From positions 1-41,227 of IMG/VR virus record IMGVR_UViG_2541047931_000011: a stretch of 41,227 nt of DNA. The stretch is one strand, 5' to 3'. The stretch is from a virus. Taxonomy: Duplodnaviria; Heunggongvirae; Uroviricota; Caudoviricetes. Shown one piece after another: positions 10,873 through 11,028 of the stretch; position 1 is the first letter of the stretch, and each line of letters starts with the position of its first letter. Position numbers and translations under genes: made by a program. Under the pieces are notes generated by a model that did no database searches, was not told the origin of the DNA, and saw only the letters and a list, made by a program, of their open reading frames with translations.

Positions 10873-11028
10873 TGCGCTGCTGGTTATCCGCTTTTACCGC
10901 CAGATGGTCATTCAAGAGAGCAATGTCGTACAAATCGACAGAGCCATCTTTAAGTGCTGTATAAGGAATTAACCCGGCGTCAACCGGATTGAGAAGGTAA
11001 GACAGCCCGTCCGGCAGGCTGTTAAACG
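10873..11028 (-). other. Open frame without start codon between chaperone and tape measure; candidate frameshift extension of the tail assembly chaperone
   Basis: 52 sense codons uninterrupted in a frame shifted relative to the chaperone, ending at the tape measure start; analogous to lambda G/GT. Confidence 0.3.

What the first reader, a model, noticed from the sequence alone, without database searches (positions are those of the whole stretch)
10873..11028. Start-less open frame between chaperone and tape measure: candidate programmed frameshift product
The 156 nt between the chaperone stop and the tape measure start are open for 52 codons in a frame shifted relative to the chaperone and contain no start codon with a ribosome-binding site. 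This is the signature of the conserved G/GT-type translational frameshift of tail assembly chaperones. I could not locate the slippery heptamer by eye.
Basis: inference. Interest (0 to 1): 0.35.

Follow-up and report, generated by a model that had tools for sequence, protein, structure and literature searches.

The report
Tail chaperone programmed −1 frameshift site
The "start-less" reading frame between the tail chaperone and tape-measure genes of this E. coli prophage is the extension of a lambda G/GT-type programmed −1 ribosomal frameshift, whose slippery sequence I located; the feature is real but ordinary, and it is already annotated in related phages.

Summary
All genes here are on the minus strand.

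- **Layout:** the chaperone (11481..11029, Pfam Phage_TAC_15) is followed by a −1 frame open from 11140 to the TGA at 10843..10841. That stop lies 11 nt inside the tape-measure gene (ATG 10851).
- **What the −1 frame encodes:** Pfam DUF6889 (E 2e-20). It has no ATG or GTG, only two TTG codons without a ribosome-binding site, both inside the conserved domain.
- **Slippery site:** It holds three overlapping in-frame heptamers: G_GGA_AAT, A_AAT_TTT and T_TTT_TTG.
- **Conservation:** the run is identical in 91 of 92 related loci while its flanks vary. Distant relatives (Burkholderia, Acinetobacter, Ralstonia, Providencia, Bordetella) carry different heptamers at the same aligned position in seven of eight phages checked; the eighth (vB_E192a) has an imperfect one.
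- **Selection:** the −1 frame is open in 90 of 90 close loci, and substitutions fall mostly on its third codon positions.
- **Predicted products:** 150 aa (16.7 kDa) and a 213-aa fusion (23.9 kDa, ...SLGNFFAYTPY...).
- **Prior annotation:** GenBank records of phages Mulock and Magia already annotate this frameshift. RefSeq instead calls a separate CTG-start "DUF6889 family protein".
- **Limits:** there is no protein-level evidence, and no downstream hairpin in this lineage.

Low interest; already known.

The parts
11029..11481 (-). Tail assembly chaperone gene, the 0-frame 'G-like' product: 150 aa, 16.7 kDa.
   Evidence: Pfam PF21822 Phage_TAC_15, E 1.8e-32. PHROG 1688 'tail assembly chaperone', E 2.9e-66. 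RefSeq calls it 'phage tail assembly chaperone' in a 100%-identical stretch.
11074..11086 (-). Slippery run GGGAAATTTTTTG. It holds three overlapping heptamers in the chaperone frame: G_GGA_AAT (11086..11080), A_AAT_TTT (11083..11077) and T_TTT_TTG (11080..11074). A_AAT_TTT is the most likely main slip site.
   Evidence: Coordinates. Identical in 91 of 92 loci, with 0 variable columns while the flanks vary. Different perfect heptamers at the same aligned position in seven of eight distant relatives; the eighth (vB_E192a) has an imperfect T_TCT_TTT. In E. coli, R_RR.U_UU.Y motifs and the U_UUU tetramer are frameshift-prone, whereas A_AAU is not among the tetramers reported as shifty and U_UUG is only 1.8-3.6-fold above background (PMC4066793).
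10841..11080 (-). The -1 frame extension ('T-like' part) read after the slip, ending at TGA 10843..10841. The predicted fusion is join(11481..11077,11077..10841), or equivalently join(11481..11080,11080..10841). It is 213 aa, 23.9 kDa, with the junction ...VVADSLGNFFAYTPYQ...
   Evidence: Open in 90 of 90 loci. Third-position substitution bias. tblastn homology to distant phages starts at residue 1 of the post-slip peptide.
10850..10966 (-). DUF6889 domain (about 39 aa) at the C-terminus of the -1 frame extension.
   Evidence: Pfam PF21829, E 2.2e-20, residues 50-88 of the 90-aa query. PHROG 4364, unknown function, E 2.9e-23.
11100..11104 (-). Shine-Dalgarno-like GGTGG, a possible upstream stimulator. 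This is inferred only, because the same bases also encode the conserved RVV residues.
   Evidence: [quoted passage not shown] It is present in all 9 enteric-clade sequences checked, and an SD-like motif within 9-17 nt occurs in 5 of 8 distant relatives. The motif class and the 6-17 nt interval come from PMC4066793.
8863..10851 (-). Tape measure protein gene (662 aa from ATG 10851). It is the inferred binding partner of the chaperone domain. Its start overlaps the end of the -1 ORF by 11 nt.
   Evidence: Weak Pfam PhageMin_Tail match. Relatives annotate it as 'tail length tape measure protein' or 'lytic transglycosylase'.
11485..11925 (-). Tail tube gene (DUF3277 / KPP10_Orf10). It is the inferred partner of the -1 frame domain, by analogy with lambda gpV.
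   Evidence: Pfam PF11681, E 2e-60. The precomputed family label is 'Phage_Tube_PhiTE'. The partnership itself is inferred from the lambda model (PMC5009743).
11003..11005 (-). The CTG that RefSeq (PGAP) uses as the start of a separate 54-aa 'DUF6889 family protein'. I judge this an annotation artefact.
   Evidence: The aligned residue is E in Klebsiella relatives. Database versions of this ORF begin at five or more different non-ATG positions and are 43-78 aa long.

Best explanation
A small fraction of ribosomes translating the tail assembly chaperone mRNA slip back one nucleotide on the run G_GGA_AAT_TTT_TTG (11086..11074). The most likely configuration has AAU in the P site and UUU in the A site (A_AAU_UUU).

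Those ribosomes continue in the -1 frame past the chaperone stop to TGA 10843..10841. They make a 213-aa fusion: the first 133-135 chaperone residues plus a 78-80-residue extension ending in the DUF6889 domain. Most ribosomes stay in frame and make the 150-aa chaperone.

By analogy with lambda gpG/gpGT, many copies of the short form plus a few of the long form coat the tape measure protein through the shared chaperone domain. The -1-frame domain of the long form recruits the tail tube protein to start polymerisation. Neither form ends up in the virion.

What is shown: the genomic signal and its evolutionary conservation. What is inferred: production of the fusion, its ratio to the short form, and the binding partners.
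For: 1. **Gene order.** Sheath (DUF3383), tube (DUF3277/KPP10_Orf10), chaperone (Phage_TAC_15), start-less -1 ORF, tape measure.
2. **The -1 ORF is coding.** Pfam DUF6889 at E 2.2e-20. Open in 90 of 90 close loci and 8 of 8 distant phages. Against SEN34, 26 of 34 substitutions are at third positions, with 6 of 62 amino-acid changes versus 26-27 of 61 in the other frames.
3. **No usable start.** No ATG or GTG. The two TTG codons lack an SD and lie inside the domain. Gene callers and PGAP pick different non-ATG starts in different genomes.
4. **Slippery run in phase.** It is in the right phase with the 0 frame and invariant in 91 of 92 loci, even at the 0-frame third positions (GGA, AAT, TTT, TTG), while synonymous changes occur in the adjacent codons.
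5. **Same position, different letters in distant relatives.** C_CCT_TTT (Burkholderia Magia, BgManors32); G_GGT_TTT_TTC (Ralstonia); T_TTT_TTT (Providencia); A_AAT_TTT alone (Acinetobacter MD-2021a); G_GGA_AAT alone (Bordetella). Several have a hairpin 5-7 nt downstream.
6. **Homology starts at the slip site.** Homology of the -1 product to distant phages begins exactly there.
7. **Independent annotators reached the same conclusion** for Mulock and Magia.
8. **Motif rules in E. coli favour A_AAU_UUU.** The A-site tRNA can re-pair cognately (UUU to UUU), and this is the R_RR.U_UU.Y class (PMC4066793).
9. **The lambda G/GT mechanism** is described in PMC5009743.
Against: - There is no protein-level evidence (mass spectrometry, Western blot or reporter) for this phage or any family member found. 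The literature searches returned only a bioinformatic statement.
- No stimulatory hairpin lies 4-10 nt downstream in this lineage. Folding energy is no better than shuffles, z about -0.4. Efficiency could therefore be very low.
- The only candidate stimulator, the SD-like GGTGG, cannot be separated from protein-coding constraint.
- The AlphaFold model of the fusion was too poor (pLDDT 42) to test the fold or the partner-binding analogy.
- One distant relative (Burkholderia vB_E192a) has an imperfect heptamer, T_TCT_TTT.
Confidence: 0.9

Rival explanations
1. The DUF6889 ORF is a separate small gene, translated from its own non-canonical start. Candidates are the CTG at 11005 used by RefSeq, or one of the TTG codons. 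A variant is termination-reinitiation after the chaperone stop.
For: RefSeq/PGAP annotates a 54-aa 'DUF6889 family protein' from CTG 11005. Many database entries list stand-alone 43-78-aa proteins. The chaperone stop sits in CTGA, which resembles overlapping stop-start motifs.
Against: - There is no ATG or GTG in the frame. The TTG codons have no SD and would truncate the domain.
- The CTG at 11005 aligns with GAA (Glu) in Klebsiella relatives. The CTGA overlap is absent in SEN34 (GGTTAA) and Mulock (GCTTAA).
- Annotated starts fall at five or more different positions across genomes.
- Conservation of the -1 peptide, and homology to distant phages, runs upstream to the slippery run.
- The invariant in-phase slippery run would be left unexplained.
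Confidence: 0.04
2. The frame change happens at the RNA level. RNA polymerase stutters on the A3T6 run and adds one U to a fraction of transcripts, which then encode the fusion in a single frame.
For: The run holds six T's. A cluster of assemblies carries the in-frame 213-aa fusion (16 members, of which 10 are 212-213 aa). These include E. coli ISC7 CDL28562.1 and the Logan contig L012, where I read T7 in the DNA. So the run is indel-prone, at least in sequencing. Homopolymers of U are noted as sources of transcriptional slippage (PMC4066793).
Against: - Distant relatives keep the heptamer phase with only T4 (CCCTTTTA, AAATTTTA), or with no T-run at all (Bordetella GGGAAATAC). That is too short for polymerase slippage, which by general knowledge typically needs runs of about 8-9 or more.
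- What is conserved is the X_XXY_YYZ phase in the 0 frame, which matters only to ribosomes.
- No complete E. coli genome gave a full-length exact match to the T7 query: the best full-coverage hits among the 257 complete genomes with a match covering at least 80% of the query had the one-base gap expected of T6. The T7 pattern matched none of the IMG/VR relatives. So T7 looks like homopolymer error or a rare mutation.
Confidence: 0.04
3. The open frame is a non-functional remnant or a chance open frame, and only the short chaperone matters.
For: Openness of 99 codons in one genome is only mildly unlikely by chance.
Against: Pfam and PHROG family matches. The frame is open in every one of 98 related loci examined. 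There is strong third-position bias. The stop overlaps the tape-measure start in the same way in most relatives.
Confidence: 0.01

Closest known systems
Bacteriophage lambda gpG / gpGT (-1 frameshift at G_GGA_AAG)
   Same: A chaperone gene immediately upstream of the tape-measure gene. A start-less -1 ORF overlaps its 3' end. The slippery heptamer begins G_GGA_AA. A short and a long product share an N-terminal domain. The proposed role is that the shared domain binds the tape measure and the extension binds the tube subunit (PMC5009743).
   Different: - There is no detectable sequence similarity; the Pfam families differ (Phage_TAC_15 + DUF6889).
- The host phage here has a contractile tail (sheath gene present).
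- The run here is G_GGA_AAT_TTT_TTG. The lambda-like heptamer ends in U rather than G, which is a poor A-site shifter in E. coli, so the adjacent A_AAT_TTT is probably the main site (PMC4066793).
- The 30:1 ratio and the binding partners are measured for lambda and unknown here.
Bacteriophage P2 E / E+E' (myovirus tail operon FETUD)
   Same: A contractile-tailed temperate enterobacterial phage. The frameshifted chaperone pair lies between the tube gene and the tape-measure gene. As I recall, its slippery sequence is a T-run ending in G (TTTTTTG), which is also the third heptamer here. I could not read the paper.
   Different: Different protein families. P2's efficiency is reported as 2-3 times that of lambda (PMC5009743), while efficiency here is unknown.
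Klebsiella phage Mulock CPT_Mulock_014/015 and Burkholderia phage Magia gp15/gp16 (annotated 'tape measure chaperone frameshift product')
   Same: These are true homologues, with the same Pfam pair and the same gene order. Mulock has the identical 13-nt run at the same place. Magia has C_CCT_TTT at the same aligned position, plus a hairpin. Its paper states that a programmed frameshift was identified.
   Different: These annotations are bioinformatic only. In the window's own lineage (E. coli, Salmonella SEN34, Yersinia YP3), records leave the ORF unannotated or call it a separate gene.
E. coli dnaX / IS911-type -1 frameshift signals
   Same: A heptamer plus a possible upstream SD-like stimulator at 6-17 nt.
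   Different: dnaX and the IS elements also use a strong downstream hairpin or pseudoknot. None is found here.

Membership tests
G/GT-type tail assembly chaperone programmed frameshift (Xu, Hendrix & Duda 2004 class) | A pair of overlapping ORFs located between the major tail/tube gene and the tape-measure gene. | tested here: met
   Tube gene 11485-11925, chaperone 11029-11481, -1 ORF to 10841, tape measure from 10851.
G/GT-type tail assembly chaperone programmed frameshift (Xu, Hendrix & Duda 2004 class) | The upstream ORF is a tail assembly chaperone. | tested here: met
   Pfam Phage_TAC_15, E 1.8e-32; PHROG 1688, E 2.9e-66. This rests on sequence only. The fold test failed because the model had pLDDT 42, and there is no PDB relative.
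G/GT-type tail assembly chaperone programmed frameshift (Xu, Hendrix & Duda 2004 class) | The downstream ORF is in a shifted frame, overlaps the 3' end of the upstream ORF, lacks its own start, and is conserved as coding sequence. | tested here: met
   The -1 frame is open 11140..10844. It has no ATG or GTG. DUF6889 matches at E 2e-20. It is open in 98 of 98 loci and shows third-position bias.
G/GT-type tail assembly chaperone programmed frameshift (Xu, Hendrix & Duda 2004 class) | A slippery heptamer X_XXY_YYZ in the 0 frame within the overlap, conserved in position among relatives. | tested here: met
   GGGAAATTTTTTG at 11086..11074. It is invariant in 91 of 92 loci. Different perfect heptamers occupy the same position in 7 of 8 distant relatives, and the eighth is imperfect.
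G/GT-type tail assembly chaperone programmed frameshift (Xu, Hendrix & Duda 2004 class) | Both the short and the frameshifted long protein are actually made, at a fixed low ratio. | not testable with these tools
   No proteomic or reporter data were found.
G/GT-type tail assembly chaperone programmed frameshift (Xu, Hendrix & Duda 2004 class) | Both products are required for tail assembly and absent from virions. The shared domain binds the tape measure and the extension binds the tube subunit. | not testable with these tools
   Inferred from lambda only (PMC5009743).
Canonical stimulated -1 PRF signal (heptamer + spacer + downstream hairpin/pseudoknot) | A stable structure starting 4-10 nt after the heptamer. 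| tested here: not met
   No qualifying hairpin in the window or in 5 of 9 enteric-clade sequences; z about -0.4 against shuffles. It is met in the Burkholderia, Acinetobacter and Bordetella relatives.
SD-stimulated -1 PRF (dnaX-like) | An SD-like sequence 6-17 nt upstream of the motif. | tested here: inconclusive
   GGTGG at 11104..11100, at the edge of the interval. It is conserved, but it overlaps conserved codons.
Stand-alone 'DUF6889 family protein' gene (RefSeq annotation) | Its own conserved start codon with a ribosome-binding site. | tested here: not met
   RefSeq has to use CTG 11005. That codon is not conserved, and the starts differ among genomes.
Transcriptional slippage site | A long homopolymer (typically 8-9 or more; from general knowledge) conserved among relatives. 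| tested here: not met
   T6 here; T4 or no run in distant relatives that keep the heptamer phase.

The most novel reading that the evidence does not exclude
In the enterobacterial branch of this chaperone family, the usual design of one heptamer plus a hairpin 5-7 nt downstream has been replaced. That usual design is still seen in the Burkholderia, Acinetobacter and Bordetella relatives. The enteric branch instead has a structure-free 13-nt run with three overlapping in-phase heptamers, perhaps helped by an upstream SD-like GGTGG. The short:long ratio would then be set by three successive chances to slip rather than by an RNA roadblock. Two of the three sites give the same protein and the third gives a Phe-to-Leu variant, so the phage might make two slightly different fusion proteins.
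Probability: 0.25. Interest if true: 0.3.

Novelty: already known. Interest (0 to 1): 0.15.

Why it matters
The main value is for annotation.

- **Scale of the mis-annotation.** About 6% of complete E. coli genomes (333 of 5426) carry this prophage module. So do many Salmonella, Klebsiella, Citrobacter and other genomes.
- **What the databases say now.** The extension is listed as a separate "DUF6889 family protein" starting at CTG, or under the propagated name "NTP pyrophosphohydrolase".
- **What it should say.** The data indicate that DUF6889 is the frameshift-encoded "T-like" domain of the Phage_TAC_15 chaperone family. The correct feature is a joined CDS with ribosomal slippage at 11080/11077.

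Biologically this is one more instance of a textbook phenomenon. The contrast between hairpin-assisted and hairpin-free slip sites within one protein family could serve as a small natural test set for studying how frameshift efficiency is tuned.

Tried and rejected
- **AlphaFold2 of the natural in-frame fusion P0001**, with a 50-sequence alignment. Mean pLDDT was 42 and pTM 0.25. I ran no fold search because the matches would be meaningless.
- **Profile search of the chaperone against PDB sequences.** Only a chance hit at E 0.15.
- **NCBIfam.** No model matched either part.
- **Rfam scan of 10600-11600 at E ≤ 1.** Nothing.
- **Promoter and terminator scan.** No promoter, and one terminator-like hairpin at the chance rate. 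So there is no sign of a separate transcription unit for the -1 ORF.
- **Downstream RNA structure in the window.** Not better than shuffles. A possible GGGTG/CACCC pairing that would enclose the slip site is visible by eye. I dismissed it because the downstream arm is absent in the Klebsiella relatives.
- **Empirical control on how far off-frames stay open past stop codons in this window**. It is confounded because neighbouring genes occupy those frames, so I used it only as a rough rate.
- **Search for T7 variants.** The T7 pattern in IMG/VR hit only unrelated DNA. No complete E. coli genome matched a T7 query exactly over its full length. I therefore treat the in-frame fusions in draft assemblies as likely homopolymer errors or rare mutants, not as a natural fused form.
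- **Literature.** No paper mentions DUF6889. The SEN34 and Mulock papers do not mention the frameshift. The P2 frameshift paper could not be fetched.
- **Whole-window comparison with E. coli BEN2908.** Only 1-24511 is near-identical (99.96%) and the early region is mosaic. I used BEN2908 annotation only for the structural module.

Full report
**What is at the coordinates**

The late genes of this region run on the minus strand. Reading that strand, the order is:
- a sheath gene (13081..11936, Pfam DUF3383/E217_gp31);
- a tube gene (11925..11485, KPP10_Orf10/DUF3277);
- a 150-aa ORF (11481..11029) that matches Pfam Phage_TAC_15 (E 1.8e-32) and PHROG 1688 "tail assembly chaperone" (E 2.9e-66);
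- a large ORF running to 8863 that relatives annotate as the tape measure protein.

The reported interval 10873-11028 runs from the base after the chaperone stop (TGA 11031..11029) to a TTG at 10872. That TTG is only the most upstream possible start of the tape-measure frame. The likely start is ATG 10851, preceded by GGAGAGAGG, and RefSeq uses it in a stretch 100% identical to this one. The real gap is therefore 177 nt.

**Check of the observation**

- The -1 frame relative to the chaperone is open for 99 codons, from 11140 to TGA 10843..10841. It begins about 110 nt inside the chaperone gene and ends 11 nt inside the tape-measure gene.
- The +1 frame closes two codons after the chaperone stop.
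- The -1 frame has no ATG or GTG. Its two TTG codons (10933, 10915) have no Shine-Dalgarno sequence and lie inside the conserved domain.
- Openness in one genome is only mildly improbable. The frame is nonetheless clearly coding, on three grounds:
  - It matches Pfam DUF6889 (E 2.2e-20) and PHROG 4364.
  - It is open in 90 of 90 close loci and in 8 of 8 distant phages.
  - Against Salmonella phage SEN34, 26 of 34 substitutions downstream of the chaperone stop fall on its third codon positions. That gives 6 of 62 amino-acid changes, against 26-27 of 61 in the other two frames.

**The slippery site**

The run GGGAAATTTTTTG holds three overlapping heptamers of the form X_XXY_YYZ, all in phase: G_GGA_AAT, A_AAT_TTT and T_TTT_TTG.

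Conservation among close relatives:
- I examined 92 related loci: 11 annotated phage or E. coli records, 80 IMG/VR contigs and one Logan contig.
- The 13-nt run is identical in 91 of them.
- Among 30-32 unique sequences it has no variable column, even at the four 0-frame third positions. Of the next 45 columns, 38 vary, and synonymous changes occur in the codons just upstream.

**Distant relatives**

A tblastn search with the post-slip peptide found phages whose DUF6889 part is only 35-42% identical. In nearly all of them, homology begins at residue 1 of the post-slip peptide. The table shows what each has at the same aligned position.

| Phage | Sequence at the aligned position |
|---|---|
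| Burkholderia Magia, BgManors32 | C_CCT_TTT |
| Ralstonia PY059YO380 | G_GGT_TTT_TTC |
| Providencia PSTCR3 | T_TTT_TTT |
| Acinetobacter A785.1 | T_TTG_GGA_AAT_TTT |
| Acinetobacter MD-2021a | A_AAT_TTT only |
| Bordetella IFTN9 | G_GGA_AAT only |
| Burkholderia vB_E192a | T_TCT_TTT (imperfect) |

Same place, same phase, different letters: this is the comparative signature of a ribosomal -1 slip site.

**Which heptamer is used**

Systematic measurements in E. coli (Sharma et al. 2014, PMC4066793) show three relevant things:
- The tetramer hierarchy is A_AAG >> U_UUC > U_UUU > ....
- R_RR.U_UU.Y heptamers are efficient.

A_AAU is not among the tetramers reported as shifty, and U_UUG is only 1.8-3.6-fold above background. 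A_AAT_TTT is therefore the most likely main site. N_NNT_TTT is also the form shared by seven of the eight distant relatives.

Slips at G_GGA_AAT or A_AAT_TTT give the same protein (...SLGNFFAYTPY...). A slip at T_TTT_TTG would give ...SLGNFLAYTPY.... The predicted fusion is join(11481..11077,11077..10841): 213 aa and 23.9 kDa, against 150 aa and 16.7 kDa for the short form.

**Stimulators**

- The window has no hairpin 4-10 nt downstream of the run. The first roughly 20 nt are unpaired, and the folding energy of the next 60-99 nt is no better than shuffles, z about -0.4. Applying the Sharma et al. rules gives no qualifying hairpin in the window or in most enteric relatives.
- The Burkholderia, Acinetobacter and Bordetella relatives do have compact hairpins with 5-7 nt spacers: GGGCTGCT...AGCAGCCC; GGGCTG...CAGCCC against GGACTG...CAGTCC, which is one compensatory change; and an unrelated 9-bp stem in Bordetella.
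- An SD-like GGTGG (11104..11100) lies within the 6-17 nt interval shown to stimulate -1 shifting. It is conserved through the enteric clade, but it also encodes conserved residues, so its role remains undecided.

**Rivals**

- **Separate gene with its own start.** RefSeq annotates a 54-aa "DUF6889 family protein" starting at CTG 11005. That codon aligns with Glu in Klebsiella relatives. Other annotators start the ORF at different codons: ATG in two Klebsiella phages, at two different places, and TTG in Hafnia phage yong1. Others omit the ORF altogether (SEN34, YP3, EKP1, the vB_EcoM phages). Database versions are 43-78 aa, with "M" placed on at least five different non-ATG codons, and many carry the name "NTP pyrophosphohydrolase". 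This looks like gene-caller behaviour, not biology.
- **Transcriptional slippage.** This is unlikely to be the designed mechanism, because distant relatives keep the heptamer phase with only T4 or with no T-run.
- **In-frame fusions in databases.** The 213-aa fusions (P0001, E. coli ISC7 CDL28562.1 and others) trace, in the one contig I read (L012), to T7 instead of T6. The T7 pattern matched none of the IMG/VR relatives, and no complete E. coli genome matched a T7 query exactly over its full length. They are most likely homopolymer errors or rare mutants.
- **Other features.** No promoter, Rfam family or above-chance terminator lies in the interval.

**Comparison with what is known**

In function and layout this matches the lambda G/GT and P2 E/E+E' systems. 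[quoted passage not shown] The shared domain binds the tape measure and the extension binds the tube subunit. Both products are required, and neither is in the virion (PMC5009743). That division of labour is inferred here, not shown.

Membership in the class is met for every sequence-level criterion. It cannot be tested for the protein-level ones.

Within this very protein family the frameshift has already been annotated. Klebsiella phage Mulock has the identical 13-nt run and a joined CDS "tape measure chaperone frameshift product". [quoted passage not shown]

**Verdict**

The finding is correct and now has exact coordinates, but it is an instance of a well-known phenomenon that is already annotated in homologues.
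- **Practical value:** annotation. DUF6889 is best read as the frameshift-encoded extension of Phage_TAC_15 chaperones. The RefSeq CTG-start CDS in about 6% of complete E. coli genomes should be replaced by a joined CDS.
- **Mildly interesting detail:** the enteric lineage uses a triple overlapping slippery run with no downstream structure, while distant relatives use one heptamer plus a hairpin.
- **Scores:** confidence in -1 programmed ribosomal frameshifting is 0.9; interest is 0.15.

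Noticed in passing
L012 1897-1910 (Logan SRR23924998 contig); proteins P0001, P0121 (CDL28562.1, E. coli ISC7): A cluster of assemblies carries the chaperone and DUF6889 as one in-frame 212-213-aa protein (10 of the 16 cluster members). In the one contig I read, the T-run is T7 instead of T6. No complete E. coli genome gave a full-length exact match to a T7 query, and the T7 pattern matched no IMG/VR relative. These are probably homopolymer sequencing errors or rare mutants at the slip site.
   Followed up: yes
window 10841-11005 (-) and database proteins P0136, P0139-P0141, P0143: The name 'NTP pyrophosphohydrolase' is attached to many stand-alone versions of the DUF6889 ORF in NCBI records. 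Nothing in the sequence supports that name, so it looks like a propagated misannotation.
   Followed up: partly
L093 910-940, L097 911-939, L094 911-946, L100 911-949, L098 909-954: Distant relatives (Burkholderia, Acinetobacter, Bordetella phages) have a compact hairpin 5-7 nt after their heptamer, with one compensatory change between the two Acinetobacter phages. About 20 nt after the heptamer (TTTTATYCARGGNCTGCTTAC) is nearly identical between AT-rich Acinetobacter phages and GC-rich Burkholderia phages.
   Followed up: partly
L008 (Elizabethkingia phage EKP1, OM284015): This phage is recorded as infecting a Bacteroidota host. Yet it shares about 66% nucleotide identity, the same gene order and the identical slippery run with enterobacterial prophages. 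The host assignment may deserve a check.
   Followed up: no
window 1-24511 versus 24512-41227: The structural and lysis module is 99.96% identical to a prophage next to sbcB in E. coli BEN2908. The lambdoid early/regulatory half is mosaic: only patches are 93-100% identical. The last 1.7 kb (39515-41227) is 100% identical; in BEN2908 the integrase and sbcB genes are annotated at the corresponding end of the region. The window is thus a recombinant relative from another strain.
   Followed up: partly
window 8863-10851 (-): RefSeq labels the tape measure protein 'lytic transglycosylase' in several strains and 'hypothetical protein' in others. Pfam gives only a sub-threshold PhageMin_Tail match. 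A C-terminal peptidoglycan-hydrolase domain seems likely but I did not examine it.
   Followed up: no
window 5659-6557 (-): A DUF2335 gene flanked by unusually long gaps (57 and 325 nt) interrupts the otherwise tightly packed baseplate gene series. It may be an inserted accessory gene (moron).
   Followed up: no
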